From: Planctomycetota bacterium
GTDB lineage: Bacteria; Planctomycetota; UBA8108; UBA1146
DNA length: 64,000 nt
Direction: 5' to 3'
NCBI GenBank assembly: GCA_013911165.1
Contig: JACETR010000003.1
Coordinates: 170 to 64,169, forward strand
Shown here piece after piece: positions 20,796 through 64,000 of this stretch. The notes under the pieces were generated by a model. The model had not been told where the DNA came from, made no database searches, and worked only from the letters and a program-made list of their open reading frames with translations. How positions within the stretch are numbered: position 1 is the first letter of the stretch; every line of letters starts with the position of its first letter. The translations under genes and the position numbers were made by a program.

Positions 20796-22043
20796 ATGCT
20801 TCGATCGATGATGATCATGCTGACCATTGCAATGGCAGTTTCTTTTGTGCCTGCAGTTGCTATTGCGGGCGGTAGTGCATTTCAGTTCAGCCTGACTGGC
20901 GGTGCCGGTGCAGCAGGTGACAGCTTCACCTCTTCTGCGCTTTTGGACAATGCCGGTGGTGGAGACGTTCAGGGTTGGTCCTTCGGTGTCTGCAGTGACC
21001 CTGCAGCCCTGACCGTAGACGGAGCCGCCAGCGGTGCCGACACGGAGACCGCCAAGAACGGATCTGCTCCTGACTTCAACCAGATCAGTACTTTTGCTGA
21101 CGGTGCCACCCAGGGTGTGGTTCTCTGCTTCACCGGCTGTGCCGTGATCGGAGACACCTCCGGTTTCGAGATGCTGACGATCGATTACACGATCGCCGGT
21201 TCCTCTGACACCACCATCGACTACTGCGGAACTCTGGGAGCTCCCCCGGTGAACACCGTGGTCGTGGTTGGCGGAGCCAGCCTTGCTCCCGCCACCAGTG
21301 GTGGATTGATCGACGTGATCAACCCGAACCAGTTGAGCGCCTCCAGTGGAACCGCCGTCCTCGGTGACGCCGCTTCCACCACCGTGAGCTTCAACAACGT
21401 CAACTACCCGGCCATCGACGCCGTCCAGATTAACCTCGGATACGACAACACCGTCGTTTCTGCGGCTTCTGTCGACGCCGATTTCGCCTTCGAGACCTTC
21501 CTGGTTCAGGACTTCACCGGCAATGGTGGTGAGATTGTGGTTGGCGGCCTTGCCGACATCACTCCTCCTCTGGACGGACTGATTCCGGCCGGTGCCTCCA
21601 CCGACCTCTTCACCGTGACCTGGAACACCGACGCCGAGGGTACCTCCGCCATGACCTTCCCGGCCACCGCCGGTAGCCCGGCTCAGGATCTTCTCTTCGT
21701 TGCTGGTCAGTCCAGCCTGGAGACCCCGACCCTGATCGACGGTTCCCTGACCGTGGTGAACTTCAACCAGTTCCTGCGTTCCGACTGCAACAGTGACGGA
21801 ACCGTCAACATTGCGGACGGTGTTTACGGTATCAACTACCTCTTCCAGGGTGGTGCTGATCCGGTCTGTGACGACGCCTGTGACTCCAATGACGACGGTG
21901 CCATCGACGCCGCCGACATGATCTACATCTTCAACTACCGCTTCCTTGAGGGCCCGGCTCCGCTGGCACCCTTCCCGAGTGCGGACCTCGACCCGACCCC
22001 GGGCGACGGACTGGGATGTGACGGCGACGCCGACGATCTGTAG
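20796..22043 (+). CDS. Secreted protein with two cohesin-like beta-sandwich modules (tentative) and a C-terminal dockerin-like module
   Basis: 415-aa ORF with signal peptide MLRSMMIMLTIAMAVSFVPAVAIAGG. Cohesin-like core strings are DVQGWSFGVCSDPAALTV...VVLCF...FEMLTIDYTI and IDAVQINLGYDNTVVSAASV...LFTVTWNT. The tail is FLRSDCNSDGTVNIADGVYGINYLF...VCDDACDSNDDGAIDAADMIYIFNYRF. The CDS call is solid; the cohesin assignment needs HMM or structure confirmation. Confidence 0.6.
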   Translation: MLRSMMIMLTIAMAVSFVPAVAIAGGSAFQFSLTGGAGAAGDSFTSSALLDNAGGGDVQGWSFGVCSDPAALTVDGAASGADTETAKNGSAPDFNQISTFADGATQGVVLCFTGCAVIGDTSGFEMLTIDYTIAGSSDTTIDYCGTLGAPPVNTVVVVGGASLAPATSGGLIDVINPNQLSASSGTAVLGDAASTTVSFNNVNYPAIDAVQINLGYDNTVVSAASVDADFAFETFLVQDFTGNGGEIVVGGLADITPPLDGLIPAGASTDLFTVTWNTDAEGTSAMTFPATAGSPAQDLLFVAGQSSLETPTLIDGSLTVVNFNQFLRSDCNSDGTVNIADGVYGINYLFQGGADPVCDDACDSNDDGAIDAADMIYIFNYRFLEGPAPLAPFPSADLDPTPGDGLGCDGDADDL

Positions 22044-37536: not shown

Positions 37537-40500
37537 ATGAAGACGTCTCCCCTCGCCTTCCTGGTGTTTGTGATTCACCTTGTTGCGGTCACCACTTTTG
37601 TGGGTGCCCAGTGCGACCCTGTTGTCGACTGCAACGGGAATGGAGTCTTGGACAGTTGCGATATCGCTGATCACAACAGCGACGATTGCGACGGTGATGG
37701 CATTCCTGATGAGTGCCAGATCAGCTCTGACCCGAGCCTGGACTGTAACCAGGATCTGATCCTCGATGCCTGCGAGAGCAGCCTCGAGCAGATCCTGAAT
37801 GGTTCTGGATCGGATTATGGCAAGGGCCTGGACATGACGTCCAACTGGCTCGCCATAGGAGCACCGGATCATTCGACCGGAGGGAACTCCGTCGGCGCTG
37901 TCCATCTTTACCGCAATATCGGTAGTAGCTGGGTTTCTGCAGGAATGCTGCAGGCGCCATCTCTCTCTGCTGGAGCAGAGTTCGGCTACAGCGTTGCGAT
38001 CACGGATGACCTTCTCGTGATTGGTGCACCGGGGACCGACAGCAGCGGTAACTCTGACGAGGGTGCCGCCTACATCTACCGCAGAAGTGGCCTGAACTGG
38101 ATTCTTGAACAGGTTCTTGAGCCTGCAGGAAGCAACAGTGACGCCGAGTTTGGTATCTCCGTTGCTGTCGACGGCGAGCGTGTGGCTGTCGGTGCATGGT
38201 ACGCATTGACCACCAGTGATTCCGGCAGTGTCTACCTCTACAGCAATGACGGAAACGGTTGGAACCTCGACCAGTTGATCGAATCCCCCGATTCCAGTGG
38301 AGACAAGCACTTCGGATCCTCCATTGAGCTTTCTGGCGATTTTGTTGCCGTTTCCGATCCGCGTGCGGATGCCGGGCCGGTCGATGACGCTGGTGCTGTC
38401 TACATCTACAGAGCATTTAATGCGAGCCTCTGGGCGTTTTCACAGAAGATCACCTCTTCTTCGCCTGTCGATGGCGGCAAGTTTGGTTACTCCATCGATT
38501 TGCAGGATGGCCAGCTTTTTGTGGGTGCTCCCAACAGTGGATCTGATGCCCGGGGAGAGGCGCATCTGTTCACTCTTGGCGGCAGCATCTTCAGTTTCGA
38601 GATTGTTTTCACCGGTCTTTCCTCCAACTCAAACCTTGGACAGGACGTGGCAGTTGCCGACGGTGGCCTTGCTGCCGGTGCCTGGAAAGCCAATGGAAAT
38701 CTGGGGCAAGTCCTCGTTTTCCAGAAAGACGCCAACGGAACTTACCAGTTTGAGTCCTTTGATCCCCAGGGAGCACAGAGCGGAGACCGCTTTGGTGAGC
38801 GTGTTGCCGCGGGTGGACGTTGGATTGCCGGAGCCAGTTTGGTCGATTCATACGTGGCTCTCGATCGACTGATCGATCTGCCCGACTGTGATGAAAACGG
38901 TGTCGACGATCCCTGTGACATTTTCCTCGGTAATTCCCAGGACTGTAATCAGGACGGTAAGCCTGATTCCTGCCAGATTGCTGATGGAGAAGTCTCCGAC
39001 TGCAATCTGGACGGGATTCCCGATTCCTGCCAGTTGGATGACGGCTCTGAGCCGGACTGCAACCTCAACGGTGTGATCGACTCCTGCGATATCGACTTTG
39101 GAACCTCTGACGACTGTAACCACAACCAGATTCCCGACGATTGTGAATCTGACTGTAACCAGAACGACATCGAGGACAGTTGCGAAATCGCAGCAGGAAC
39201 CGCTGCGGACTGTAACTCCAACGGACTTCTCGACGCGTGTGATTTGATTGCTGGAACCGATACGGACTGCAACAACAACTCGATTCTTGACGGTTGTGAA
39301 ATTGCCGACGGCAACGCCACGGACTGTGATGAAAATGGAATTCTGGACGTTTGCGATATCCTGCTGGATTTCAACAACGACTGTAACTCCAACCAGATCC
39401 TCGACTCCTGCGAGATCGCCAACGGCACGGCCTTTGACTGTAACAACAACAGCAAGCCGGATATCTGCGACGTTGCATTCGGTATTTCACCGGATTGTGA
39501 CAATGACCTGATTCCCGACGAGTGCGAGTTGCAGGATGGCAGTGAGCCGGACTGTAACGGCAACAACATTCCCGACTCCTGCGATATTCTTGCGGGAATC
39601 GAGCAGGACTGTGAAGGAAACGGTATCCCGGACACCTGTGATGTTGCCAATGGTGCTCTGGACTGTAATGAAAACAATGTCCCCGACGTTTGCGAAGTGG
39701 ATGTTGATACCCAGCTGCCGACCTTCGAAGGCCTGAGTGGTGACCTTTCCATCAGTGCTCTCGAGGGAAGCTGCGAAGCACCGGCAACTTGGTCTGAGCC
39801 GACTGTCACGGATGATTGTGGCGTCGATTCTGTCATCAGCAGTCACACCTCCGGAGATTCCTTCCCGGTGGGCGACACTCTGGTGACCTACACGGCCACC
39901 GATGTGAGCGGCAACGTGAACACGGCCTCCTTTACGGTGACCATCACCGATGATCAGTTGCCTTCCATTGCCAACGGCCCCACGGACATCTCTGTCTCTA
40001 ACGATGCCGGCACGTGTCAGGCTGTGGTGAGCTGGGATGAGCCGAGCGCCGCAGACAACTGTGGAATCGCTGATCTTTCCAGCAACCATTCCGCCACCGA
40101 TTCTTTCCCTGTGGGAACGACCACGGTGACCTACACCGCAACCGATGTGAATGGCAACCAGACGACCCATTCCTTCAACGTCACTGTTTCTGACGACGAT
40201 CTTCCGGCGATCCACGGACTGCCCGGACCCGTCTTTGTGAACAGTAACCCCGGGTTCTGTACCGCAGCAGTCAGCTGGCCGGCACCGACCTTCTCCGACA
40301 ACTGTGACGATGTCACCGTCGAGGTGAATTATCAGTCCGGTTCCGCATTCACGGTGGGTGTCACCCTGGTGACCTACACCGTCACCGACGCAGCCGGAAA
40401 CATTGCGGAGGCCTCCTTCGAGTTGACCGTTCTGGATAACGAACTGCCGACCATCACCAATGTTCCGGCAGATGTGGTCCTCAACAATGATGAGGATCTC

Positions 40501-43500
40501 TGTGGTGCTGCCTACGTTTGGGAAGAGCCTGCTCTTTCCGACAACTGCGGTGCACCGGCGCTGACCTCCAGCCTCCAGTCGGGACACGTCTTCCCCGTTG
40601 GAACGACCTTCGTCAGCCTGACCGTGGATGACGGAAACTCCAACCTTGTAGAGACCGGATTCACCGTCACCGTTGTCGACAACACCTCTCCCCTGATCTC
40701 CAGAATGCCCACTGATATCGTCATCGAGGCTGATCAGGGTGGCTGTGACACTCTCGTCGAGTGGGAAGAGCCAGAGGCTGCCGACAACTGCGGAGTTTCG
40801 ACCCTCGTCGCCAACAATGTCCCGGGAATTTACGCCGTCGGAACCACGGAAGTGGTCTACACGGCTCAGGATATTCACGGCAACATCACCCTTGAGTCCT
40901 TCACTGTGACCGTGGTCGACAGTCAGTCTCCGGAGCTTTCCGGTCTGCCCGTTGATCTTTCCACCGACAACCTGTTGGGTCTTTGTGGCGCAAACCTCGC
41001 CTGGCCTGAGCCGAGTGCCGCAGACAACTGTGGAGTGGAAAGCATCGAATCCACCCATTCCCCGGGTGACGAGTTCCCTGTGGGAATCACGACCGTCATT
41101 TACACGGTGACCGATATCAACGGTAACGTAACCAATGAGTCGTTCCAGGTGACCATTCACGACGTGGACGCCCCTGAGATCGACAACATGCCCGCCGACA
41201 TCACCACGACCAATGACGAAGGTGACTGTGGCGCACTGGTCAGCTGGACTGAGCCGGTGGCATGGGATAACTGTGAAGTGATCGAACTTGTCTCGAGCCA
41301 TGAGAATGGCGGATTCTTCCCGGTGGGCACCACTGAGGTGACCTACACCGCGAAAGATGACTCCGATCTGGAGTACAGCGAGTCCTTCCTGATCACCGTT
41401 TCCGACGACGAAGCCCCGGTCCTGATTGGACTGGCCGAGCAAGTGACCTACAGCAACGTTGAAGGTCTTTGCAGTGGTTTGGCCACCTGGGACCTCCCCA
41501 GTGCCAGTGACAACTGTGAAGTCAGTGAGATCACTTCAACCCACGAGCCGGGTTGGTCCTTCAATGTTGGAAGCACCCTGGTGACCTACACTGTGACCGA
41601 TATCCACGGCAACTCTTCTCAGGAAGTTCTGATCGTGGTCATCGAAGACACCGAAGCACCGACTTTCGTCAGTGTGCCGGATGACATTCAGGCCACCACT
41701 GAGCCTGGAATCTGCACGACGATCGTCAACTGGGATATCCCGGTTGTTGACGACAACTGTGAGATCTTCAGCCTTTCGACCAGCAACCTTCGCGGAACCG
41801 AGTTTGGTGTCGGTGTGACCACCGTCACTTACACGGCCACCGACATTCACGGAAACTCCACCGATCACAGCTTCGTGATTACCGTTTCCGACGACGAAAT
41901 GCCGGTGATCGACCCTGTTCCGGAGATTATCGAGGTCAACACCGATCCTGGACAGTGCAACGCCATCGTTCACTGGGAAGATGCGTTCGCCACCGACAAC
42001 TGTGGAATCCTCAGTTACGAGGCGAGCCACGAGTCCGGTGACCTCTTCGAGCTGGGAACGACGACCGTGACCCTGACCACCATGGACATCCACTTCAACG
42101 TCACCACTGAGACCTTCGACGTTGTTGTGACCGATGCCGAGGCGGCCGAGTTCACTTCCTTCCCCGATGACATTCAGCTGATCGCCGAGCCGGGACTGTG
42201 CTCTGCCATGGCCGATTGGGATGCTGCCACTGCTTCCGACAACTGTGGTGTGGCGAGTATCGTCTCTGATCGTCAGCCCGGAGAGCACTTCGATGTGGGT
42301 ACCACTGAAGTGACCTTCACCCTGACCGACGTCAACGGCAATGTGACCGAGGATTCGATTCTGATCACCGTGGAAGACCTCGAGCTTCCTGTGATCACCA
42401 ATCTTCCCGATCGCATCACCGTGGGAACCGAACCTGGAATCTGTCTTGGAACCACTTCCTGGACGACTCCGGATGTTTCTGACAACTGTGCTGTCGACAC
42501 TCTCGTTGCCAGTGTGGAGAGCGGAACGATGTTGCCGATCGGTGAAACCGCCGTGACCTACACCGTGACCGATATCCACGGAAACTCCAGCAGCCAGAGC
42601 TTCATCGTGACTGTTCAAGACCAGGAGCTTCCGCAGATCATCAACATTCCTGCCGACATCACCCAGACCAACGATACCGGTGCCTGTGGCGCGGTCATCA
42701 TGTGGGATGCTGCTGACGCCCTCGACAACTGTGAGGTTGCCGACCTTCAGAGCAGCCACAACAGCGGAGATTTCTTCCCCGTTGGAACCACGACGGTGAC
42801 TCTGACAGCGACCGACACCACCGGAAACAGTCACTCTGAGACCTTCGAGGTCACCGTCACCGACGATGAGAATCCGATTCTCTCCGGTGTTTCCGGCGAC
42901 CTTGTCAGCGACAGCGACGCCGGTGAGTGCGGAGCGATCGTGTCCTGGGCCGATCCGACCGCCACCGACAACTGCGGTGATTTGACCCTGACCTCCAACC
43001 ACAACCCGGGAGATTTCTTCCCGGTGGGTACCACAGTCGTGACCTACGTGGCAGTGGACCAGTACGGCAACGCCACGACCCAGCATTACTCGGTGACGGT
43101 GAACGACGTCGAGGATCCGCAAATCAGTGGCATGCCTGCGGACATCCAGCAGAACACTGATCCGGGCATCTGTGGTGCCGTGATTGAGTGGACTCTTCCG
43201 CAGTCCTCCGACAACTGTGACGTGCTTTCCCTGACTTCGGATTACCAGTCAGGTGAGACTTTCCCCGAGGGAACCACCACGGTGACCTACACGGTGGAAG
43301 ATATTCACGGCAACAGCAGTAGTGCCAGTTTCCAGATCACCATCAGCGATGCCGAGGCTCCGGAGTTCACCTCCGTGCCCGCACCGATCTCCGTCAACAA
43401 TGACCTTGGAGATTGTGGAGCGATCGTCGAGTGGAGTGCACCGCAGGCACAGGACAACTGTGACGTTGCGGGAATCACCCTGAGCCATCAGTCCGGAGAC

Positions 43501-47964: not shown

Positions 47965-47985
47965 TAACGATTGAATGAAAATGAA

Positions 47986-48011
47986 CCGGGCAACCCGAAA
48001 GGGTTGCCCGG
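47986..48011 (+). other. Stable 11-bp GAAA-tetraloop hairpin between giant genes 2 and 3, with no U-tract
   Basis: ccgggcaaccc (47986-47996), gaaa, gggttgcccgg (48001-48011). It is followed by acgaatcccc, so it is not a canonical intrinsic terminator. Confidence 0.5.
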
Positions 48012-48110
48012 ACGAATCCCCTACTCTTTCACGGCGAGTTGTGCCGTGAACAACACAACCTGGTTGACGCAAGGATCCCCCGTCTCTGCGTCATACCTAA
48101 TGGAGGTACG

Positions 48111-57100: not shown

Positions 57101-60100
57101 CCAGGTTTCATGGACCCCGCCCGCTGCTCTGGATAACTGCGGGATTGAAACCCACGTGTCGAGTTACAACCCGGGTGACCTGTTCAATCTGGGAACGACG
57201 ACCGTGGAAATCGTCGCCACTGATTACAGTGGAAACTCCGTGACGGGCACCTTCCTGGTTACCGTCGAAGATACGGAGGCACCGGGGATTGCCAATCTTC
57301 CGGAGAACATGACCGTTGAGTCTGAGGTCGGCATGTGTGGTGCCAATGTCAGCTGGGTGGAGCCCTTCACCGTTGACAACTGTGCCACCGGAACACTGGT
57401 TTCAGACATCGCCAATGGAGCGTACCTCAATGTGGGTCTCCACCAGGTGACTTACACAGCGACCGATCTTCATGGCAACGTCACGACAGATTCGTTCTCG
57501 ATTGAAGTGGTCGACGCTGAAACCCCAATCATCCTGAGCGCACCTTCCTCTGTTGAAATCCAGGTGCAGGATGGGCTGTGCGGTTCGATTTACAGTTGGT
57601 TTGAGATTCAGGCAACCGACAACTGTGCCATCGACAGCATCACCAATAGTCATGAGAGTGGGTCTTTCTTCCCGAAAGGAACCACGCTTGTTCAGCAGAC
57701 CGTCAGTGACGCTGCAGGTAACAGTGTTTCTCATGAGTTTGAAGTGACCGTGGTCGACCACGAGGCTCCGCAGTTCAGCTCTTCGATTTCAGGGCTCAGC
57801 CTTCAGAGCGTCAGTGGTGCATGTGGAACCAGTGCTTCATGGACTGAGCCGGAGATTTCCGATAACTGTGAAATCGCCAGTTTGACCAAATCCCATGAGC
57901 CTGGAGACTTCTTCGAAGTGGGTGAAACTCTGGTGACCTACACTCTCGTCGATGGAAGTGGCAATGAGACCAGCATCGATTTCCTCGTGTCGGTTGAAGA
58001 CGTTGAGGCTCCGGTGATCTCTGGCCTTCAAAGTTCAGTTTCCGTATCCACGGATCCGGGATTCTGCGGAGCAACCGTTTACTGGGATGCTCCTGTGATC
58101 ACCGACAACTGCCTTGTTGACAACATTCTGTCTACCCATCAGCCGGGCGACTTCTTCCCGGTTGGCAACACGGTTGTGACCTACAGCGTTTCTGACAACT
58201 CTGAGTTGGTTACCACCGTTGAGTTCCTGATCACTGTTACCGACAATGAGACGCCTCAGATCAACAACATTCCTTCGATCGACCTGATCGAAACGGAGCC
58301 GGGTCTTTGCGGTGCAGTTGTTGCATGGAGTTCTCCGAGTGTGACCGACAATTGCCAAGTGACGAGCTTGACCTCAGACATCCAGAATGGAACCTTCCTG
58401 GAAATCGGTCAGCACACCATCGTCTTCACCGCCCTCGACATTCACGGTAATGAATCGACGGCCGGATTTACTGTGACGATCATTGACGGAGAGGCACCGA
58501 CGATCACCGATCTTCCCACTGTGGTCGAGGGTGTGAGGACCAGTGACAGCTGCATGGGCAGCGTTAACTGGGCAGAGCCCCTGATCAGTGATAACTGCGG
58601 AGAGTTCGCATTGGAAACGAGTCACCAGAGTGGAGATTCCTTCAACCTTGGAATCACCACGGTGACTTACACTGCCACCGATCTGCAGGGCAATACCCAA
58701 TCAGCCAGCTTCGAAGTACACATCGCGGATGTCCATGGCCCCGAGATCAGTGGCTTGCCGCTGGAAATCAGCAGCGATACGGATCCGGATTCCTGCCTGG
58801 CCATCGTGGACTGGGCTGAGGCGTCTGTAATGGATCATTGTGGCGATTTCAATCTTGAGAAAACCCACGAGCCGGGTACTGCTTTCCCCGTGGGAACCAC
58901 GGAAGTGGTTTACACCGCGACCGATCTGGCTGGAAACGTCACACAGGTCAGCTTCCCTGTGACCGTAACGGACGTTCAGGCTCCCCTGATCACGCTGATT
59001 CCCGAGGATCAGACGATTCTGGCCAATGAGGATGAGTGCACCATGATCGCCAACTGGCCAGCACCGACTGCTACCGACAACTGTGGAGTGGCGTCCATCG
59101 TCACCAGCCACAACTCTGGTGACCTTTACCCGGTCGGTGTAAATACTGTTGAGATTCTGGTGACGGACGTTCATGGAAACACCACGACCGCCTCTTTCCA
59201 GATTAACGTGATCGACAGTATTGATCCGATTCTGACCGGAGTTCCCGCAGATATCACGACGGTATCTGATCCGACAATCTGTGGTGCGGAAATCACTTGG
59301 GTCGAGCCCAACGTGATTGAGAACTGTGCTCTGCTGAAGTTGGAATCGGACTATGCACCTGGAACGATTTTCCCTGTGGGTCTGACGGTCGTGAATTACG
59401 TGGCTGTTGACCTCAGCGGCAACAGCACCTCCGCTTCTTTCACTGTCACGGTGATTGATGATGAGGCTCCGACTATCGAGATTCCTGTCCCGGTGATCGT
59501 GGATGCTCCTGAGGGCTCTTGCGAAGTCTTCGTCGAGGTTCCGCTGTTGGAGGTCTATGACCGCTGTGGTGTTTCCCAAATCACCAACAGCTTCAACGGT
59601 ACAGCTGATGCTTCGGGGATTTACCCCCGTGGTGAAACCCTGATCCTCTGGTCGGTCAGTGACGAGAGTGGAAACATTTCGACGATCACTGGAGTGGTCA
59701 GTGTTCAGGTCAGTGGACCGGACTGTAATGCCAATGGTGTCCCCGACGTGTGCGATATCGCAGAAGACATTTCCACAGACTGTAACCAGGATGGCATTCC
59801 TGACGAGTGCCAGGCTGACTGCGACGACGATGGCATTCTCGACGTCTGTGAAATCACTCAGGGACTCGTCCTCGACTGTGATTTGGATGGAGTGCCCGAC
59901 GATTGTCAGATCGCTTCTGGAATCGCAGCGGACTGTGACGGTGACGGACTGATCGACTCTTGCGAGATTCTGACCGGATCTGGTCTCGACTGTGACAACA
60001 GCGGGGTTCTGGATTCGTGTGAGATTGCGCAGGGTACTGTTGCGGATTGCAACAACAACGGTCAGCCGGACCTTTGCGACATTGCTCTGGGAGTCGAAAG

Positions 60101-61667
60101 TGACTGCAACAACGATGGAATTGCTGACGCATGTCAGATCGCCAGCGGATCTGAAGTTGACTGTAACGCTGACGGCGTGATTGACACTTGTGAGTTGGCC
60201 AACGGTTCTGCTTCCGACTGTAATGGCAACGGAACGCTGGACGTTTGTGACCTCGCCACCGGAAATGCAGATGATTGCAACCAGAACTCGATTCCGGATT
60301 CCTGTGACATCGCTTCCGGTATCGCATTCGACTGCAATGCCAATGGTCAGTTGGATATCTGTGATATCGAGCAGGGCCTGGCAGACGACTGTGACACCAA
60401 CAACGTTCCTGATGCCTGCGACGTGGCTTCCGGTGCAACACCGGACTGTAACAGCAATGGCATTCCGGATTCCTGTGACCTTTCGAGCGGTGCCTCTGAA
60501 GACTGCAATGGAACGGGAATCCCGGACAGTTGTGAAGTCGCCAGTGGTGCGACACCGGACTGTAATGGCAATGGTGTTCCGGACAGCTGTGATTTGGCCA
60601 ACGGAACAGCAGATTGTGACAACAACAATGTGCCCGACAGTTGCCAGATCGCTTCTGGAGAATCACCGGATTGTAATGGCAATGGTGTACCGGACGCCTG
60701 TGATATCAGCTCCGGTGCGGCGCTTGATTGCAACACCAATGGAGTTCCTGATTCCTGTGAGGTGGCTAACGGACAGGCTGCAGACTGCAACAGCAATGGA
60801 ATCCCCGACAGCTGTGATATCGCCAGCGGCGTTGAATCTGACTGCAACTCTTCTGGTGTGCCCGACAGTTGTGAGGTGACCAGCGGTACTGCGCTGGATT
60901 GCAACGACAACGGTATTCCGGACAGCTGCGATATTGCCTCAGGCAACTGGCAGGACTGTGATGCCGACGGCAACCTGGACAGTTGCGAAATTCTGGTGGG
61001 TACTGAGCAAGACTGCAACGGTACCGGAATCCCTGACGCATGTGAGATTCTCTCCGGTGCTGCCGACGATTGTGACGGCAACCAGATTCCGGACAGTTGT
61101 GATCTCGTGACAGGCGTTCTTTCTGATTGCGATCAGAATGGCACCCCGGATACCTGCGATATCCTCGCTGGGGGTGTTGAGGATTGCGACGGAAACCAGG
61201 TTCCCGACAGCTGCGATTTGCTCACTGGTACTCTGGAAGACTGCAACCAGAATGCGGTTCCGGACTCTTGCGAAATCGCTGCCGGTGATACAGAGGACTG
61301 TGATGGCAACGGAATCCCCGACTCCTGCGACATTGCTGCAGGCCTTCTGTTGGACGCCAACCTCGACGGAATCCCGGACCAGTGTCAGCTGAACTTCCTC
61401 AGGGGAGACGGCAATGACGACGGGATCGTCAACATCGCTGACGGTATCTTCCTGCTTCAAAGCCTCTTTGCTGACGGAGCGGATTCCACCTGTAATGATG
61501 CGGCGGATGCCAATGACGACAGTTCAATCGACGTATCCGACGTGATCAGCATTCTTGGATACCAATTCAATGGAACCAATCCTCCTCCTGCTCCTTACCC
61601 GAACTGCGGAGTTGATCCTGCAGGCGGAGTGAGCCTCGGGTGTGAGGCCTACACCAGTTGTCCCTGA
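48111..61667 (+). CDS. Giant secreted adhesin-like protein 3 (~4,518 aa): 3 + 5 + 30 Cys-bracketed Ca-loops, FG-GAP region, 41 HYR modules and a dockerin-like C-terminus
   Basis: ORF 48039..61667, with the start at ATG 48111 (GGAGG 48103-48107; MFPRIALYTGALFCVLIFAQASASAQ signal). FG-GAP-like units are present (FGSAVDSTADFAVVGAPDDD, FGAAVAIEGDLAAIGAPG). HYR cores were hand-counted from CGAVVTWDEPIATDNCGI to CEVFVEVPLLEVYDRCGV. Confidence 0.95.
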   Translation: MFPRIALYTGALFCVLIFAQASASAQCQPTVDCNQNGVADQCDIDLGTSDDCNGNLIPDECDLELATSEDCNLDGIPDECSPGTADLVGIGLAFGGGFGSAVDSTADFAVVGAPDDDLLGTNTGSANIFKRTGTRWAEEMKIFGVAATLEDRFGAAVAIEGDLAAIGAPGKLQGRGAVFLYRRVGNGWWNYEGTLTAFDAPLGAAFGSAIAIENETIFVGAPGTLNGLGSGSVYVFTHESGMWLQDQKLESDQLTDGDMLGCSIAVHGGTVAIGAPGHESGGVTNSGSVLIFEESAGIYTESLMLSAETPSPFATFGYSLDVNHDHLLVGAPGENVDSGAAYLHNRLASMWINQQKIEPEDIDESGLFGADVGLDVKTAVISAPAAGSDQGQVVIYRKSGLDWIKEAPLSPVSDRIAGDFYGSSLSCQLPFLIVGSSGDSSGKSIWISVYNDCNENLEDDICDVTQGIEADCNMNLIPDACEIADGTKQDCDGNGVPDECQISSGELLDCNMNGVPDGCDVTSGFSLDCNQDQIPDECQVDADPLLPTISNMPNPFNVSTDLNECGAVVTWDEPIATDNCGIASLETTHPSGSFFSTGLTIVTYTATDVSGNTRAAMFTVVVTDDELPTLTGFQNVVSVDSSEGICELAVNWPAPSPVDNCGIFSMTSTHQPGDIFPVGTTTVTYTLTDTNGNVSAINLDVVVVDTVAPEISGMPADIDLLTEPGICTRLVEWVEPEASDDCNVASFTSNIASGTVFELGTTTVTYTVIDGWGNVVSSSFNVTIRDEELPVFAAAPADIVSGNDPGECHAQISWAPATVQDNCGVNSVVSSHQPGDIFPLGDTEVTITATDDNGNVNLHQFTVSILDTEAPLISNIPEDFVLNNDPAQCSAVVNWQLPGISDNCGISVFSGTANSGDAFPIGTTVVEYTLVDNSGNQTNANFSITVTDTEMPILLGLPQDISVFNDPGQCGANVTWEVPTPWDNCELVDFDGSHEPGAFFPKGTTEVTYLVMDGMGQVTTGSFDVSVDDDEAPQISGMPADRTISADAGLCSAIHSWTVPVPSDNCEVVSFIATHEPGEAFPVGVTQVSYTVIDSMGMTTTDQFSITVVDNENPQIIRIPSDMTVVVEEGDCTIPVSWIAPDSQDNCAIDTFSLSHASGSEFPVGLTTVEINTADIHGNTSAASFTVTVLDQETPVILNLPADISLTSDGDACGTTVTWIEPQGADNCSVSDLSSDQVNGEFYPVGITVVTYSILDASGNSDEASFAIEITDTTAPAFVEIPQGIQMSTDPGQCGAIVSWNPVTADDNCEVDTISGSHSSGMFFNTGITTVDYLVTDIHGNQTSHSFDVEILDQEQPQIIGIDENIVMTNDGGQCGANVSWVQPEATDNCLVDSLTHSIPSGAFFSVGTTQVSYLAVDNSGNETVKSFSVTVEDNEKPAFVAIPELVSGTTTEGTCDGIVNWDEVTGSDNCLVDSITLTHASGDVFPLGDTTVTATITDIHGNMHTSDFTVRIEDDELPQLLGTPTDQFKINDPGECGAIVDWIIPGTSDNCQVQILEGTHVPGSFFERGTTVVSYTVTDASGNSYMESFEVNIVDLETPEILGTPADIVAVADTGSCGTNISWIEPTSTDNCSVQALISSHNPGDFFITGTTVVSYTSQDPTGNITTTQFNVTILDEEFPTFGTFPESVTVSNDADQCGASVSWIEPQMLDNCSIGSSGSDHQSGDFFPIGTTVVTYEIADPSGNTISDSFSITVEDTQAPDFLTFVSSTVLENDPGECGAVHTWGVPEVFENCPELEVVSSHNPGDFFNTGLTVVSYTATDGAGLVSQLMFTVIVLDTENPQIAGMPADITQATDLDSCGAIVDWAAPQASDNCDVLSFTSDHAPGDFFPKGTTTVTYSVLDTAGLLVTESFNVTILDQQLPSITAMPQSVTINSQNGLCGSMHAWDLPQSSDNCPDHVFSGSHQPGDFFEVGSTTVAYTAIDSSGNVSSADFVVTVVDNENPEIVGAPQDMVIIADEGVCSMLVMWDAPTFEDNCGIDTFAISRESGSEFLLGDTLVEITTTDIHGNSSAASFTVTILDQELPQVVDLPADMSVENDLDSCGAVVSWIEPTSSDNCEVTSLTGNQINGGTYPIGITVVEYTVVDSSGNTNLASFQIEVLDTQLPELFAMPDSVLQVNDAGACGAVIGWDLPQTSDNCPDQILTSTHNPGDFFSVGETTVSYTVTDASGNTRSLSFDIQIVDLEIPVVVDGPQDILVEAEQGLCGSTISWIEPTAIDNCEVFDLKPSNYPGEFFAVGTTLVSYTAIDTTGNIAVHVFNVTVEDTQAPIIDGLTGDISVNTDFNQCDAIVTWTEPTISDNCTVVSANVDISSGTAFPIGTTTVTYTVIDSAGLETVQSFDVTVSDNQIPTFENIPGNVVLSVEPGTCQSLHHWIEPTITDNCPGLTVTASHQPGDSFPVGLTIVSYQAADAHGQSRQIMFTVVVQDDENPVLAGIPEDVILENDLDQCGAVHQWVEPTASDNCATVGFNTTHPSGSFFDLGTTEVVYSVSDPSGNMVSASFNVTVVDLQLPEFVTVPETVSLNTDPGVCGAAHYWDLPNVYDNCEEINLASSHQPGHVFPIGTTVVTYTAQDPTGNVVSTDFSVTVSDFEDPDFEGIPGTITVNTEPGLCDAAVDWVAPIAVDNCEVQSHSSSHQPGDRFELGQTSVILSATDIYGNDFTTSFLVIVEDHELPVISGMPESVTIPSIQGFCGASHLWDSPTASDNCDTLAPTADYLSGHFFPVGSTTVTYSVTDESGNYTEDSFIVTVEDVEAPVFTAISTDYTVSADADQCGTAVIWPDAEASDNCGVDSITYDRTNGLFLELGDHPVNVTVTDIHGLQTTQQFVITVVDDTAPVIHDLPADIQLTATEGQCGAVATWIEPTSTDNCPGRLLANNIPSGSFFLVGQTTVSYVSTDASGNTTTESFTVTVEDDQLPTLAGIPDDIVVSNDQGICGAQVSWTPPAALDNCGIETHVSSYNPGDLFNLGTTTVEIVATDYSGNSVTGTFLVTVEDTEAPGIANLPENMTVESEVGMCGANVSWVEPFTVDNCATGTLVSDIANGAYLNVGLHQVTYTATDLHGNVTTDSFSIEVVDAETPIILSAPSSVEIQVQDGLCGSIYSWFEIQATDNCAIDSITNSHESGSFFPKGTTLVQQTVSDAAGNSVSHEFEVTVVDHEAPQFSSSISGLSLQSVSGACGTSASWTEPEISDNCEIASLTKSHEPGDFFEVGETLVTYTLVDGSGNETSIDFLVSVEDVEAPVISGLQSSVSVSTDPGFCGATVYWDAPVITDNCLVDNILSTHQPGDFFPVGNTVVTYSVSDNSELVTTVEFLITVTDNETPQINNIPSIDLIETEPGLCGAVVAWSSPSVTDNCQVTSLTSDIQNGTFLEIGQHTIVFTALDIHGNESTAGFTVTIIDGEAPTITDLPTVVEGVRTSDSCMGSVNWAEPLISDNCGEFALETSHQSGDSFNLGITTVTYTATDLQGNTQSASFEVHIADVHGPEISGLPLEISSDTDPDSCLAIVDWAEASVMDHCGDFNLEKTHEPGTAFPVGTTEVVYTATDLAGNVTQVSFPVTVTDVQAPLITLIPEDQTILANEDECTMIANWPAPTATDNCGVASIVTSHNSGDLYPVGVNTVEILVTDVHGNTTTASFQINVIDSIDPILTGVPADITTVSDPTICGAEITWVEPNVIENCALLKLESDYAPGTIFPVGLTVVNYVAVDLSGNSTSASFTVTVIDDEAPTIEIPVPVIVDAPEGSCEVFVEVPLLEVYDRCGVSQITNSFNGTADASGIYPRGETLILWSVSDESGNISTITGVVSVQVSGPDCNANGVPDVCDIAEDISTDCNQDGIPDECQADCDDDGILDVCEITQGLVLDCDLDGVPDDCQIASGIAADCDGDGLIDSCEILTGSGLDCDNSGVLDSCEIAQGTVADCNNNGQPDLCDIALGVESDCNNDGIADACQIASGSEVDCNADGVIDTCELANGSASDCNGNGTLDVCDLATGNADDCNQNSIPDSCDIASGIAFDCNANGQLDICDIEQGLADDCDTNNVPDACDVASGATPDCNSNGIPDSCDLSSGASEDCNGTGIPDSCEVASGATPDCNGNGVPDSCDLANGTADCDNNNVPDSCQIASGESPDCNGNGVPDACDISSGAALDCNTNGVPDSCEVANGQAADCNSNGIPDSCDIASGVESDCNSSGVPDSCEVTSGTALDCNDNGIPDSCDIASGNWQDCDADGNLDSCEILVGTEQDCNGTGIPDACEILSGAADDCDGNQIPDSCDLVTGVLSDCDQNGTPDTCDILAGGVEDCDGNQVPDSCDLLTGTLEDCNQNAVPDSCEIAAGDTEDCDGNGIPDSCDIAAGLLLDANLDGIPDQCQLNFLRGDGNDDGIVNIADGIFLLQSLFADGADSTCNDAADANDDSSIDVSDVISILGYQFNGTNPPPAPYPNCGVDPAGGVSLGCEAYTSCP
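49731..59714 (+). repeat. Array of 41 HYR modules (40 canonical plus 1 divergent terminal module)
   Basis: Hand count of the C..W..P...DNC cores. The array length divided by 243 nt gives about 41. Confidence 0.85.
59721..61388 (+). repeat. 30 tandem copies of the 19-aa (57-nt) Cys-bracketed EF-hand-like loop
   Basis: 556 aa running from DCNANGVPDVCDIAEDIST to DANLDGIPDQCQ. Twenty-seven units are exactly 19 aa. There are two Cys per unit, and I could find no Lys or Arg in the whole stretch. Confidence 0.9.
61395..61664 (+). other. Dockerin-like module with Cys-rich tail (giant 3)
   Basis: FLRGDGNDDGIVNIADGIFLLQSLF...STCNDAADANDDSSIDVSDVISILGYQF...NCGVDPAGGVSLGCEAYTSCP-stop. Confidence 0.75.
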
Positions 61668-61704
61668 CCCAACATGTGGGTTGAGATAGATTTGAGTGGG
61701 GATC

Positions 61705-61751
61705 GGCGTCGGTGACGTGTCATTCATGACCGCACCGGCGCCATTTTTTTT
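61705..61751 (+). terminator. Strong rho-independent terminator after giant gene 3
   Basis: The stem ggcgtcggtg (61705-61714) pairs with caccggcgcc (61733-61742): 10 bp including one G-U pair. It is followed by ATTTTTTTT (61743-61751). Confidence 0.85.
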
Positions 61752-62146
61752 GGTCCTGGGGCTATCCGTGTGTAAACCCGGGGGCAGTTTATTTACTTTA
61801 GAAACGTAGTTAACATTTCAGTTTCGATATATCCATAAGTGTAGTTTTTACATTGTGATAGATAGTTCTGATCTCGTTTCTATTTGGGGAAAAAGTGGTT
61901 CTGAAGCATTAACAAAGTCGGTATAAAATGCTGGTAGAAGCCTCCAGATAGGCCGGGGAATCCGGTCTCTCATTCGCGGTTATTCGCGGTATTGAGGGAT
62001 GGGAATCAGTTATTCAGCCCCGAAGGTCTGGAAGGCTAACTTTGGAAACGGCGGTTTCCTGGCACCCTGGGGTAGATGGGGGTGGGTTCGCCGTATTTAG
62101 GGGTTGTGTACTCGACATTTCTATTCAGAGAGTGGGAGGGTTTCCC

Positions 62147-64000
62147 ATGCGTATTTTTGTAAGTGCGTTCACTGCACTTTTGCTGCTCGTAGCGACAGTT
62201 GACAGTTCTGCGCAGGTCTGTCCGCCAACTGTAGACTGCAATGCCAATGGCCAGGCTGATTCCTGTGATATCTCGCAAGGACTCAGCGACGATTGCAACT
62301 TCAACGGGATTCCCGATGAGTGTGATCTCAATGCAGCTCTCAATGCAGATTGCAACATGAACGGGATTCTCGACATCTGCGAGCCTGTTCCTCCGGTGCA
62401 ATTGATCGGTGGAGCGGCAACTTCCAATTCCGCGATGAATGGGAATTGGATGTTGGTCGCGGATCCTGCTGAGCCGCCTCCTGCTGATGAGCCTCCTCCT
62501 CTGCCCGGAGAAATTCACCCTCCTGTGGTGAGGATCGTTGAGGTCTTCAAGCGTGTCGGTACCCGTTGGCTTCTCGATGGATATCTCGTTCCGAATGACC
62601 CCACTGATCAGGACAATCTGGATGGTTTTGCATTCAGCATGGCCATTTCTGGAGATACCGCAGTGATTGGTGCTCCGATGGGTAATGGCCATACGGGTAA
62701 AGCCTATGTGTTCCAAAGAACTGAAAACGGTTGGATTGAAGCACAGGTCTTGCAGGCCGAGTTGCCCACCTTTGGAGCGCTCTATGGATTCTCGGTAGAC
62801 ATCATGGGCTCTGATATCGTCATTGGTGCCCCTCAGGCACCCCTCGGCGACGATGGAGACGATGATGCCGATCCGATCGGGCCGACCCCTGGCGGATACG
62901 CTGAAATCTGGTCCCAAACCGGGACCGGTTGGGAGAGGGCAACACGCCTTGCACCCACCAACCCTGTCACCGGTGGTGGTGAAGAGATTGGAACCTCCGT
63001 TGCGTTTGCCAGTGATGGTTGGGTATTCCTCGGAGCTCCTGCTGCCGGAGGAACCTCTTCAGGCCATGTATTCGGATTCCGTAATTTCGGTGGAGGTTGG
63101 GTATTGATGGAAACGCTTCAGGCGTTCGACAGTACTCAAGGACACCGTTTTGGTGCCCAGATTGCGGTCAGCGGCGACACCATGGTGGTCGGAGCTGAGC
63201 GCGCGCCAGCCGGATTAAACGCCGGCCCGGTGGGCGCGGTCTATACCTTTGACCGGTCTGCTGGTGGTGGCGATTGGATTGCTGGAGGAAGAACGGTCAG
63301 CAGTACTCCGGATACCAATGGATATGCTGATTCTCTGGCAATGACTGGAGACCTGATGGTCGTCGGCGAGCCGAGAGCGGATGCTACCCGTGGTTTTGCT
63401 CATGTCTACAACAGAGCAGATGATGGTTCCTGGACACTCATGGATTCAATCAGGCCTGTCGGTACCGTCTCTGGAAATGCCATCGGAAGTAATGTTGCGA
63501 CAGATGGAGAATGGATTTTCTACAGTGCTCCTGAAGTGATCGCATTTACCGAGTTCCGTGAAATCACTCCCGATTGCAATGCCAACGGCTTTGATGATCG
63601 TTGTGAGATCAATAGTGGCCTGGAGTCTGATTGCAACGGCAACATGTTGATCGATTCCTGTGAAACCCTTTCTGGTGCAGAAGAAGACTGCGATGCAAAC
63701 GGGATTCCGGACTCCTGTGAATTGGCCAGCGGTGCATTTGACTGTAACAACAACGGGATCCTTGATTCCTGTGATATCAGTGGTGCCTTGAGCCTCGATT
63801 GCAATGCCAACGGCATTCCCGACGATTGTGAAGACGATTGCAACGGCAATGGAATCCCCGACAGTTGTGATCTTCTTTCCGGGGCACAGGACTGCAATGC
63901 CAACGGAATTATCGACAGTTGCGATATCGCCAGTCAGATTGATGCAGACTGCGATGGCAACGGCACTCCCGATTCCTGTGACCTGGCGTCCGGAGCAGGG
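62147..64000 (+). CDS. Giant adhesin-like paralog 4, 5' fragment (at least 618 aa, runs off the window): signal peptide, 3 Cys-loops, FG-GAP region, at least 8 Cys-loops
   Basis: Not in the supplied ORF track, because it has no stop codon in the window. I translated it by hand from ATG 62147 (GGGAGGG 62134-62140). It reads MRIFVSAFTALLLLVATVDSSAQVCPPTVDCNANGQADSCDISQG... FAFSMAISGDTAVIGAPMGNGHTGKAYVF ... PDCNANGFDDRCEINSG ... DCDGNGTPDSCDLASGAG and stays open to base 64000 (618 codons exactly). Confidence 0.9.
   Translation, partial: MRIFVSAFTALLLLVATVDSSAQVCPPTVDCNANGQADSCDISQGLSDDCNFNGIPDECDLNAALNADCNMNGILDICEPVPPVQLIGGAATSNSAMNGNWMLVADPAEPPPADEPPPLPGEIHPPVVRIVEVFKRVGTRWLLDGYLVPNDPTDQDNLDGFAFSMAISGDTAVIGAPMGNGHTGKAYVFQRTENGWIEAQVLQAELPTFGALYGFSVDIMGSDIVIGAPQAPLGDDGDDDADPIGPTPGGYAEIWSQTGTGWERATRLAPTNPVTGGGEEIGTSVAFASDGWVFLGAPAAGGTSSGHVFGFRNFGGGWVLMETLQAFDSTQGHRFGAQIAVSGDTMVVGAERAPAGLNAGPVGAVYTFDRSAGGGDWIAGGRTVSSTPDTNGYADSLAMTGDLMVVGEPRADATRGFAHVYNRADDGSWTLMDSIRPVGTVSGNAIGSNVATDGEWIFYSAPEVIAFTEFREITPDCNANGFDDRCEINSGLESDCNGNMLIDSCETLSGAEEDCDANGIPDSCELASGAFDCNNNGILDSCDISGALSLDCNANGIPDDCEDDCNGNGIPDSCDLLSGAQDCNANGIIDSCDIASQIDADCDGNGTPDSCDLASGAG

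What the first reader, a model, noticed from the sequence alone, without database searches (positions are those of the whole stretch)
37537..64000. Tandem locus of three giant paralogs (plus a fourth at 9705): 95 HYR modules and 51% of the window
Genes at 37537..47964, 48111..61667 and 62147..>64000 are same-strand neighbours. The complete ones (these two and 9705..16634) share one modular plan: signal peptide, Cys-loops, FG-GAP-like region, Cys-loops, HYR array, Cys-loops (absent in the 9705 gene) and a dockerin-like tail. The fragment at 62147 matches that plan as far as the window reaches.

HYR counts by hand are 22, 32 and 41. Summed coding length is 32,769 nt of 64,000.

Giants 2 and 3 also share a divergent last HYR-like module: ...DNCDVATVTNSYTGASDANGTYPLGDTVITW... 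versus ...DRCGVSQITNSFNGTADASGIYPRGETLILW.... That argues for duplication of the whole gene followed by independent expansion of the internal arrays.

Such a concentration of multi-kb adhesin-like paralogs suggests a dedicated surface-fibre, attachment or aggregation apparatus rather than isolated 'giant genes'.
Basis: partly seen in the sequence, partly recalled or inferred. Interest (0 to 1): 0.75.

Follow-up and report, generated by a model that had tools for sequence, protein, structure and literature searches.

The report
Dockerin-tailed HYR fibre gene family
An uncultured marine planctomycete carries five related genes for long, repeat-built surface fibres that most likely plug into a separate set of docking proteins; each part is of a known kind, but the combination has not been described.

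Summary
Together with the gene starting at 62147 they fill 32,769 of 64,000 nt.

Corrections:
- The 9705 gene lacks the N-terminal Cys-loops, and its FG-GAP signal is below Pfam's threshold.
- The fourth gene is not a giant. Identical contigs show it is 1822 aa with 11 HYR modules.
- A fifth collinear paralog (1762 aa, 11 modules) follows it, and the locus then ends.

Each protein is built the same way: signal peptide, integrin-alpha-like 7-blade propeller, 19-aa disulfide-clamped Dx[DN]x[DN]G loops, HYR rod, and a C-terminal dockerin.

The same tail ends two more window proteins. One is a P-domain/phosphoesterase enzyme (6122-8614). The other is ORF 20796-22043, whose model is a double cohesin plus dockerin. 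The same species has ten more such adaptors in tandem elsewhere.

Best reading: length-graded adhesive fibres held by a non-cellulosomal cohesin-dockerin network, close to the hypothesised "planctosome". Binding is inferred, not shown.

The arrays are not assembly artefacts, but module number is polymorphic: g2 has 31 or 32, g3 has 41 or 45. NCBI already labels these genes "HYR domain-containing protein".

The parts
9705..16634 (+). g1, 2309 aa (NCBI MBA4683527.1). Long signal peptide; degenerate FG-GAP-like head (aa ~45-355); 4 Cys-loops (aa 358-433; nt 10776-11003); 22 HYR modules (aa 436-2216; nt 11010-16352); dockerin tail (aa 2217-2309; nt 16353-16631). No loops before the head or after the HYR array.
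37537..47964 (+). g2, 3475 aa (MBA4683543.1). Signal peptide; 3 Cys-loops (nt 37624-37794); FG-GAP propeller (nt ~37804-38871); 15 Cys-loops (nt 38881-39714); 32 HYR modules (nt 39715-47496); 3 Cys-loops (nt 47497-47670); dockerin tail (nt 47671-47961). Modules 20-27 and 29 are a young expansion.
47986..48011 (+). 11-bp, 9-GC hairpin between g2 and g3 (-25.3 kcal/mol, z -6.5). No U-run on the + strand.
48111..61667 (+). g3, 4518 aa (MBA4683544.1). Signal peptide; 3 Cys-loops (nt 48201-48374); FG-GAP propeller (nt ~48378-49454); 5 Cys-loops (nt 49461-49745); 41 HYR modules (nt 49746-59714); 29 Cys-loops (nt ~59718-61370); dockerin tail (nt 61371-61664).
53651..54622 (+). 972-nt (exactly 4-module) segment of g3. 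It is present as a perfect tandem duplicate in one other assembly (L004, g3 = 4842 aa), with an 8-nt microhomology at the junction.
61698..61750 (+). Hairpin followed by a U-run after g3 (-28 kcal/mol, z -4.4). Likely an intrinsic terminator.
62147..64000 (+). g4, the first 617 of 1822 aa (MBA4683545.1). The gene would end near 67615 in extended coordinates. Inside the window: signal peptide; 3 Cys-loops (nt 62231-62404); 7-blade propeller (nt ~62414-63562); start of a 13-loop block. Outside the window: 11 HYR modules, 6 loops, dockerin tail. Paralog g5 (1762 aa) follows, at about 67849-73137 in extended coordinates.
20796..22043 (+). Candidate receptor/adaptor, 415 aa (MBA4683529.1): signal peptide, two cohesin-like beta-sandwiches (aa ~30-320), and the same dockerin tail (aa ~327-415).
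6122..8614 (+). Dockerin-tailed enzyme, 830 aa (814 aa if it starts at the ATG at 6170): proprotein-convertase P-domain, endonuclease/exonuclease/phosphatase domain, and the same tail (last ~92 aa).

Best explanation
The locus encodes a family of five paralogous exported fibre proteins of an uncultured marine Planctomycetota bacterium. g1 stands alone; g2-g5 lie in tandem.

Each protein has four functional parts:
- a Sec signal peptide;
- a distal N-terminal head, a 7-bladed FG-GAP propeller like the integrin alpha headpiece, which is the likely ligand-binding end;
- a stalk built from 19-aa disulfide-clamped, EF-hand-like calcium loops plus a rod of 11, 11, 22, 32 or 41 HYR (Ig-like) modules, each with a conserved Cys pair;
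- a C-terminal type-I-like dockerin.

The dockerin most likely inserts, calcium-dependently, into cohesin modules of small adaptor proteins. One adaptor (ORF 20796) is in the window, and ten paralogs lie in tandem elsewhere in the same species' genome. Each adaptor also carries its own dockerin, so adaptors could chain together. The result would be a cell-surface or extracellular scaffold that displays fibres of graded length (very roughly 40 to 150 nm, if each module adds ~3.5-4 nm) with different heads, together with dockerin-tagged enzymes such as ORF 6122. The purpose would be attachment to particles, polymers or other cells.

Shown: domain composition, paralogy, the shared tail, the cohesin fold of the adaptor, and module-number polymorphism.

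Inferred: export across the outer membrane, cohesin-dockerin pairing, orientation, ligand, and fibre dimensions.
For: - HYR arrays: 22/32/41 modules with invariant C20, G53 and D63 and near-invariant C35 and W26; two Cys in 94 of 95 modules.
- Head: FG-GAP_2 is above threshold. The AF2 model of g4 aa 1-617 has pLDDT 86.9 and pTM 0.83. Its best PDB matches are integrin alpha headpieces, E 1.7e-15. The alignment consensus shows seven FG..GD..VVGA blades.
- Cys-loops: 73 units with consensus DCNxNGIPDxCDIxxG; 47 fit Dx[DN]x[DN]G. They are modelled as loop plus short helix at pLDDT above 90. Pfam gives only sub-threshold EF-hand matches.
- Tail: the g3 tail hits solved dockerins (2y3n_B E 6.9e-6; 1daq and 2mte ~8e-4). 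The tails of g1, g2, g3 and ORF 20796 share 21 invariant columns. The tail HMM independently finds ORF 6122 (E 8.6e-26), g4 and g5.
- Receptor: ORF 20796 scores Pfam Cohesin 30.2 bits against a cut-off of 24.1. Its AF2 model has pLDDT 86.7. Foldseek matches a cohesin dyad (3l8q, E 2e-11) and single type I cohesins at TM 0.78-0.84 and rmsd 2.4-3 A.
- Adaptor family: ten tandem paralogs, each with a signal peptide, 2-3 cohesin-like units and the same tail, lie in a genome 99.95% identical to the window.
- Precedent: cohesin/dockerin plus an HYR protein were proposed as a 'planctosome' in freshwater Planctomycetes (PMC6461901).
Against: - No binding evidence of any kind. No cohesin-dockerin complex model could be run.
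- Pfam Dockerin_1 is below its gathering score on the three window giants' tails.
- The adaptor has no recognisable membrane or cell-wall anchor, so tethering to the cell is unexplained.
- No secretion system is encoded nearby, and how a 4518-aa protein would cross a planctomycetal envelope is unknown.
- In a more distant relative the adaptor gene keeps its housekeeping neighbours but has no giant next to it. The giant-adaptor linkage is therefore not operonic.
- The tail module is very common: 42,612 representative proteins, often in multiple copies and not only C-terminal. It may therefore have roles other than cohesin binding.
Confidence: 0.55

Rival explanations
1. The proteins are released extracellular-matrix or aggregation proteins rather than cell-anchored fibres. 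They would be secreted and cross-link with each other and with the cohesin-dockerin adaptors into a calcium-dependent gel or mesh that glues cells to marine particles or to each other.
For: - Neither the giants nor the adaptors have a membrane anchor or sorting signal.
- The adaptors carry both cohesins and a dockerin, which suits polymerisation.
- Calcium-binding motifs are abundant.
- Hyalin, the founding HYR protein, is an extracellular matrix protein (my own knowledge).
Against: Nothing distinguishes this from the anchored model with the present data. An anchoring scaffoldin could be encoded elsewhere in the genome.
Confidence: 0.2
2. The proteins are substrate-capture arms of a degradative complex, a 'planctosome' in the strict sense. 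The propeller heads and HYR arrays would bind polymeric substrate (protein, nucleic acid or glycan) and hold it next to dockerin-tagged hydrolases on the same scaffold.
For: - A dockerin-tailed P-domain/phosphoesterase enzyme lies in the same window.
- The published planctosome model assigns substrate binding to an HYR domain (PMC6461901).
Against: - Only one dockerin-tagged enzyme was seen.
- Rods of 22-41 modules are far longer than a substrate-binding adaptor needs.
- No peptidases or glycoside hydrolases occur in the window.
Confidence: 0.15
3. The proteins are attachment organelles for a host- or prey-associated lifestyle, as proposed for dockerin-type giant proteins of Omnitrophota.
For: - Giant dockerin-rich proteins have been linked to attachment to host or prey in PVC relatives (bioRxiv 10.1101/2023.11.21.568195).
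- The heads are integrin-like.
Against: - The neighbouring metabolism is that of an ordinary free-living heterotroph.
- The organism is seen widely in open-ocean metagenomes, including a Tara Oceans assembly.
- No lytic domains are present on these proteins.
Confidence: 0.05
4. The arrays or the tandem layout are assembly artefacts, or the genes are decaying pseudogenes.
For: - One assembly has a perfect 972-nt duplication in g3.
- Four listed g2 variants lack one module at the 94%-identical pair 26/27: three of 3394 aa and one of 3398 aa.
- One MAG has a 1-nt frameshift in g1.
Against: - Exact repeats are at most 19 nt in g1 and g3 and 86 nt in g2.
- Lengths recur among listed cluster members: g3 4518 aa in 14, g2 3475 aa in 8, g4 1822 aa in 9, g1 2309 aa in 10.
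- Independent contigs reproduce the order g2-g3-g4-g5.
- The reading frames are intact over 32.8 kb.
Confidence: 0.02

Closest known systems
'Planctosome' hypothesis for freshwater Planctomycetes (Andrei et al. 2019, ISME J, PMC6461901)
   Same: Non-cellulosomal cohesin/dockerin modules in Planctomycetes. An HYR-domain protein carries a dockerin. Proprotein-convertase P-domain proteins take part. No cellulases are involved.
   Different: - There, a single HYR domain sits in one adaptor together with both a dockerin and a cohesin, and the anchor is an LTD/P-domain/TSP3/cohesin protein that holds peptidases.
- Here, the HYR proteins are rods of 11-41 modules with integrin-like heads and a dockerin only.
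- Here, the cohesins sit on separate ~415-625-aa proteins, at least 11 per genome.
- Here, the P-domain protein carries a dockerin, not a cohesin.
- Both models are untested.
Cellulosomal cohesin-dockerin systems (Clostridia; e.g. PDB 1ohz, 2ccl, 3l8q, 2y3n)
   Same: The tail has the duplicated calcium-loop/helix dockerin pattern and hits solved dockerins by sequence. The adaptor model superposes on type I cohesins and on a cohesin dyad.
   Different: - No glycoside hydrolases, CBMs, SLH or sortase anchors were found.
- The cargo is adhesin-like fibres.
- The tail has an extra ~30-aa Pro-rich, Cys-containing extension (PAPxPxCGxDP..LGCE..CP).
- The organism is a Gram-negative-type planctomycete.
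Giant repetitive Gram-negative adhesins exported by type I secretion (SiiE, LapA, MpIBP)
   Same: A long rod of tens of Ig-like modules stabilised by calcium holds a ligand-binding region away from the cell. Abstracts of PMC6272769 and PMC5466336.
   Different: - Those have a C-terminal RTX/T1SS signal, adjacent T1SS genes, an N-terminal retention module and C-terminal ligand-binding domains.
- Here there is an N-terminal Sec signal peptide, an N-terminal head and a C-terminal dockerin, with no RTX repeats and no T1SS genes.
Tandem giant surface-protein loci, e.g. Giant1-5 of Apilactobacillus kunkeei (PMC12863079)
   Same: Several consecutive same-strand genes encode very large extracellular proteins that take up a sizeable share of a genome segment and have evolved by duplication (abstract).
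   Different: Unrelated domains, a Gram-positive host and a different anchoring mode. This is an analogy of arrangement only.
Integrin alpha-subunit headpiece
   Same: A seven-bladed FG-GAP beta-propeller. Foldseek E 1.7e-15 over ~440 aligned columns.
   Different: Only 12-16% identity, with no beta-subunit partner, thigh/calf domains or transmembrane segment. Bacterial FG-GAP propellers are common.

Membership tests
HYR domain (Pfam PF02494) | Score above Pfam's gathering threshold; ~81-aa Ig-like module with a conserved Cys pair and Trp | tested here: met
   Whole-protein scores are 734, 1184 and 1355 bits against a 21.7 cut-off, with 22/32/40 stretches. My own HMM finds 22/32/41. C20 is invariant, C35 is in 96% and W26 in 98% of the 95 modules.
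FG-GAP / integrin-alpha-type beta-propeller | FG-GAP repeats above threshold, forming a 7-bladed propeller | tested here: met
   For g2, g3 and g4: PF14312 scores 106, 135 and 86 bits against a cut-off of 23. The AF2 model has pTM 0.83. Foldseek matches integrin alpha heads at E 1.7e-15. The alignment consensus has seven blades.
FG-GAP / integrin-alpha-type beta-propeller (g1 only) | FG-GAP repeats above threshold | tested here: inconclusive
   The g1 N-terminus scores 18.4 bits against a cut-off of 23. Pairwise to the g2 head it is 26% identical over 206 aa, E 2e-4. Single-blade matches only.
Dockerin type I (Pfam PF00404) | Score above Pfam's gathering threshold (22.9 bits) | tested here: not met
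   Giants: g2 19.3, g1 20.9, g3 16.0 bits. ORF 20796 scores 26.0 bits and passes.
Dockerin type I (fold and motif) | Two tandem calcium-binding loop-helix (F-hand) segments homologous to solved dockerins | tested here: met
   The g3 tail against PDB gives 2y3n_B E 6.9e-6, 1daq 7.7e-4, 2mte 8.4e-4 and 6kg9 1.2e-3, aligned across both D-x-N-x-D-G loops. The tails of g1, g2, g3 and ORF 20796 share 21 invariant columns. The ORF 20796 tail is modelled as helices.
Cohesin (Pfam PF00963), for ORF 20796 | Cohesin beta-sandwich, by sequence threshold and by fold | tested here: met
   30.2 bits against a cut-off of 24.1, although no single stretch passes on its own. AF2 pLDDT is 86.7. Foldseek matches the 3l8q cohesin dyad at E 2e-11 and type I cohesins at TM 0.78-0.84 and rmsd 2.4-3.2 A.
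Functional cohesin-dockerin system | Calcium-dependent binding of the dockerin to a cognate cohesin | not testable with these tools
   No complex prediction or experiment was available. Only the co-occurrence of five dockerin tails and one double cohesin in the window, and ten more adaptors in the same species' genome.
Cellulosome | Dockerin-borne glycoside hydrolases and a CBM-bearing scaffoldin | tested here: not met
   No GH or CBM family was found on any scanned window protein. The only dockerin-tagged enzyme is a P-domain/Exo_endo_phos protein.
'Planctosome' as drawn by Andrei et al. 2019 | LTD/P-domain/TSP3/cohesin anchor; adaptor with dockerin, HYR and cohesin in one chain; dockerin-tagged peptidases | tested here: not met
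   HYR and cohesin are on separate proteins, and the P-domain protein carries a dockerin, not a cohesin. No peptidase occurs in the window. The general idea, non-cellulosomal cohesin-dockerin plus HYR in Planctomycetes, does match.
RTX / type I secretion giant adhesins | C-terminal RTX nonapeptide repeats and secretion signal; adjacent ABC/MFP/TolC genes | tested here: not met
   No RTX or HlyD/ABC families were found. The proteins have N-terminal signal peptides.
Type IX secretion cargo | C-terminal Por_Secre_tail/CTD | tested here: not met
   No CTD family appears in Pfam or NCBIfam. The only T9SS-related hit is a 37-39-bit local match of HYR modules to part of PorU, against a cut-off of 420.

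The most novel reading that the evidence does not exclude
Abundant marine Planctomycetota may build a self-assembling, purely adhesive cohesin-dockerin scaffold. Eleven or more adaptors, each with 2-3 cohesins and its own dockerin, would chain into a branched network. That network would display length-graded HYR fibres with distinct integrin-like heads, plus a few enzymes. On this reading the cellulosome principle has been re-used for adhesion and particle capture, and the network could be the so far unidentified protein basis of planctomycetal surface fibres. The 19-aa disulfide-clamped Dx[DN]x[DN]G loop array, up to 29 in a row, would be a new calcium-dependent rod element with no curated family.
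Probability: 0.25. Interest if true: 0.7.

Novelty: new variant of a known kind. Interest (0 to 1): 0.45.

Why it matters
Giant repeat adhesins and cohesin-dockerin pairs are each well known. Their combination, with long HYR rods whose only recognisable attachment device is a dockerin and a genome-encoded family of small multi-cohesin adaptors, has been proposed only once, in a much simpler form, and has never been tested.

If the pairing is real, it gives a concrete molecular model for how a widespread, uncultured ocean planctomycete holds on to particles. It would also extend the cellulosome principle to adhesion.

The locus is in addition a clean natural example of how tandem Ig-like arrays evolve:
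- old modules sit at ~37% identity;
- block duplications of one and four modules are still segregating in the population;
- one gene pair remains collinear after whole-gene duplication.

Tried and rejected
- Degenerate-pattern scans of genome contigs and metagenome contigs with the g4 head gave only 3 and 2 distant loci.
- The search for homologous proteins returned no giants at all. The g4 head query listed only proteins up to 1079 aa, and the tail query only seven 79-167-aa fragments. Family-wide architecture could therefore not be surveyed that way.
- Direct look-up of g3 failed with either start codon, as did look-up of ORF 6122. The way round was cluster-member ids.
- NCBIfam gave only sub-threshold matches (OmpL47 equivalog, PorU, LapB repeat) or HYR-related ones (the OmpL47-type barrel domain). 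It found nothing for the Cys-loops, the g4 head or the adaptor.
- PDB sequence searches found no solved HYR relative; the LRR hits look spurious. They found nothing for the Cys-loop array beyond E 0.36 EF-hand proteins.
- Collinearity between the g2 and g3 arrays was looked for and not found. The best four-module diagonal is 0.49 against a background of 0.40.
- Relatives L001, L003 and L013 were inspected for tandem giants and were uninformative.
- Considered and rejected: T1SS/RTX adhesin, T9SS cargo, cellulosome proper, assembly artefact.

Full report
OBSERVATION

The ATG starts at 37537, 48111 and 62147 each follow a GGAGG-like site. Coding length sums to 32,769 nt, 51.2% of the window.

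Pfam reports HYR (PF02494) with 22, 32 and 40 stretches in the three complete proteins. Pfam misses only the divergent last module of g3.

Of the 95 modules, 94 have two cysteines and one has three. C20, G53 and D63 are invariant; C35 is in 96% and W26 in 98%.

FG-GAP_2 is above threshold in g2, g3 and the fragment at 62147.

Three details need correcting:
- g1 has no Cys-loops ahead of its head. Its FG-GAP signal is sub-threshold: 18.4 vs 23 bits, and E 2e-4 pairwise to g2.
- Pfam Dockerin_1 is sub-threshold on the giants' tails.
- The fourth gene is not a giant (see below).

WHAT LIES BEYOND BASE 64000

The window proteins are NCBI MBA4683525.1 (P-domain protein)...527.1 (g1)...529.1 (adaptor)...543.1 (g2)...544.1 (g3) and ...545.1 (g4). 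They come from a 'Planctomycetes bacterium' MAG, and the HYR proteins are already labelled 'HYR domain-containing protein'.

Cluster-member ids let me fetch contigs that are 99.6-99.9% identical to the window and run further. They show:
- g4 is 1822 aa, and its first 617 residues are identical to the window fragment. It continues with a 13-loop block, 11 HYR modules, 6 loops and the dockerin tail.
- A fifth paralog, g5 (1762 aa), follows on the same strand with the same plan and 11 modules.
- The locus then ends at minus-strand small genes.

ARCHITECTURE

Head. An AF2 model of g4 residues 1-617, built from a 54-sequence alignment, has pLDDT 86.9 and pTM 0.83. Its best PDB matches are integrin alpha headpieces (E 1.7e-15). 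The alignment consensus shows seven blades.

Cys-loops. These are a 19-aa unit with consensus D-C-N-x-N-G-I-P-D-x-C-D-I-x-x-G. The four window proteins have 73 copies: g1 4, g2 3+15+3, g3 3+5+29, and g4 3 plus at least 8. Of these, 47 fit the calcium-binding Dx[DN]x[DN]G motif. AF2 models each unit as a loop plus a short helix at pLDDT above 90. No curated family covers them: Pfam gives only sub-threshold EF-hand matches, NCBIfam nothing and PDB nothing.

Tail. The g3 tail hits solved dockerins by sequence: 2y3n_B at E 6.9e-6, and others near 1e-3. The tails of g1, g2, g3 and ORF 20796 align with 21 invariant columns. In the giants the tail ends in a Pro-rich, Cys-containing extension, CGxDP..LGCE..CP.

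THE UNEXPECTED PARTNERS

A tail HMM run over the six-frame translation of the window finds five bearers: g1, g2, g3, ORF 20796 and, independently of the training set, ORF 6122-8614 (E 8.6e-26).

ORF 6122-8614 is a proprotein-convertase P-domain plus endonuclease/exonuclease/phosphatase enzyme.

ORF 20796-22043 scores above Pfam's cut-offs for both Cohesin and Dockerin_1. Its AF2 model (51 sequences, pLDDT 86.7) is two beta-sandwiches plus a helical tail. The model matches a cohesin dyad (3l8q, E 2e-11) and single type I cohesins at TM 0.78-0.84.

This ~415-aa protein is a conserved family in marine Planctomycetota, with about 100 clusters.

In a genome 99.95% identical to the window (GCA_045565955.1), another contig carries ten tandem same-strand paralogs of 427-625 aa. 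Each has a signal peptide, two or three cohesin-like units and the same tail.

MECHANISM

The best-supported reading is fibres anchored by their C-terminal dockerin to cohesins of these adaptors. The integrin-like head would be held distally on a stalk stabilised by calcium and disulfides. Because each adaptor also has a dockerin, adaptors could chain into a scaffold.

This is close to the untested 'planctosome' idea for freshwater Planctomycetes (PMC6461901), but it differs in who carries what (see the membership tests). None of the binding steps is shown.

Three gaps remain:
- There is no recognisable cell anchor on the adaptors.
- There is no secretion system nearby.
- The adaptor-giant linkage is not operonic. 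At 65% identity the synteny g1-DUF7133-adaptor persists; at 58% the adaptor keeps its housekeeping neighbours but the giant is absent.

The tail module itself is very common, in 42,612 representative proteins.

EVOLUTION

Module identity averages 0.37-0.46 within genes and 0.36-0.40 between genes. In g1 and g3, adjacent modules are no more alike than distant ones.

Only g2 modules 20-27 and 29 are young. Their best match is 0.62-0.94, and the strongest offset is four modules.

The g2 and g3 heads are collinear at 34% identity, but their arrays are not collinear. Their divergent last modules are reciprocal best hits.

g4 and g5 are 51% identical and collinear module by module, with a diagonal of 0.49 against 0.38. 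This is direct evidence for whole-gene duplication.

The split between g4 and g2/g3 predates some lineage splits. P0003 and P0007 are 40-47% identical to the g4 head, against 27-30% for g2 and g3.

ARTEFACT TEST

Exact DNA repeats are at most 19 nt in g1 and g3 and 86 nt in g2. Module DNA identity is mostly 60-75%. Gene lengths recur among the listed cluster members, which come from different sources and contigs, and the order g2-g3-g4-g5 is reproduced.

Module number does vary:
- Three listed g2 variants are 3394 aa and one is 3398 aa. Each lacks exactly 81 aa at the 94%-identical pair 26/27.
- One assembly has g3 at 4842 aa, through a perfect in-frame 972-nt (four-module) tandem duplication with an 8-nt junction microhomology.
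- One MAG has a 1-nt frameshift in g1.

Whether these are real alleles or local assembly effects needs long reads.

CONTEXT

The flanks are housekeeping genes: a haem-biosynthesis gene run (GlutR, porphobilinogen deaminase, HEM4, URO-D and an amine-oxidase-family flavoprotein; my reading hemA-C-D-E-Y), PEPCK, GGT, an aminotransferase, a DUF7133-HEAT-cytochrome c protein and a catalase-peroxidase. Strong hairpins follow g2 and g3.

VERDICT

The kind of thing is known: giant Ig-like adhesins, and cohesin-dockerin display. The combination is a new variant worth a binding test.

Noticed in passing
window 20796-22043: A 415-aa secreted protein with two cohesin-fold domains and a dockerin tail. It is a conserved ~415-435-aa family in marine Planctomycetota, with about 100 clusters.
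   Followed up: yes
window 6122-8614: A proprotein-convertase P-domain plus endonuclease/exonuclease/phosphatase protein that ends in the same dockerin tail as the giants. The likely true start is the ATG at 6170, because most cluster members are 814 aa.
   Followed up: partly
L015 893-19743 (GCA_045565955.1 JBJLEH010000004.1, ~998-1020 kb); also L016: Ten tandem same-strand paralogs of the cohesin-dockerin adaptor (427-625 aa, 24-43% identical). The longer ones match the adaptor twice, so they probably have three cohesin units. A 1682-aa Big_5/FG-GAP_3/TIG protein follows.
   Followed up: partly
L019 13249-18537 (about 67849-73137 in extended window coordinates): A fifth paralog, g5 (1762 aa, 11 HYR modules), lies directly after g4. 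After it the strand switches to small genes, an Exo_endo_phos protein, a patatin and a glycosyltransferase.
   Followed up: yes
window 53651-54622 vs L004 26115-28058: A perfect 972-nt in-frame tandem duplication (four HYR modules) in one assembly gives g3 = 4842 aa. All 14 full-length listed members of the window g3 cluster are 4518 aa.
   Followed up: partly
window ~45776-46272 (g2 modules 26/27): Three listed cluster members have g2 at 3394 aa and one at 3398 aa. Each lacks exactly one 81-aa module at the 94%-identical pair that shares the only 86-nt exact repeat. This could be a real allele or a repeat collapse.
   Followed up: partly
window 14812 (g1), in L006: The NCBI MAG GCA_045565955.1 has a 1-nt C insertion that splits g1 into 1711 + 604 aa. 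The site is not a long homopolymer (ggaaCCaCCaC).
   Followed up: partly
window 14213-14274 vs L008: Eight SNPs within 62 nt lie at the very start of contig L008, inside g1. This is either a contig-end artefact or a short gene-conversion tract between modules.
   Followed up: no
tail profile A2: The ~98-aa dockerin-plus-extension module occurs in 42,612 representative proteins. Some carry several tandem copies, for example P0230 (874 aa, 7 stretches) and P0301 (1187 aa, 19 stretches).
   Followed up: no
window 31524-37041: A same-strand run of haem-biosynthesis genes directly upstream of g2: GlutR, porphobilinogen deaminase, HEM4, URO-D and an amine-oxidase-family flavoprotein (my reading hemA-hemC-hemD-hemE-hemY). 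A 495-nt non-coding gap (37042-37536) precedes g2.
   Followed up: no
window 16755-20156 and 2327-3472: Proteins typical of Planctomycetota: a DUF7133-HEAT-cytochrome c protein (1133 aa) and a protein with a DUF1579 match. A catalase-peroxidase (740 aa) lies at 3551-5773 on the minus strand.
   Followed up: no
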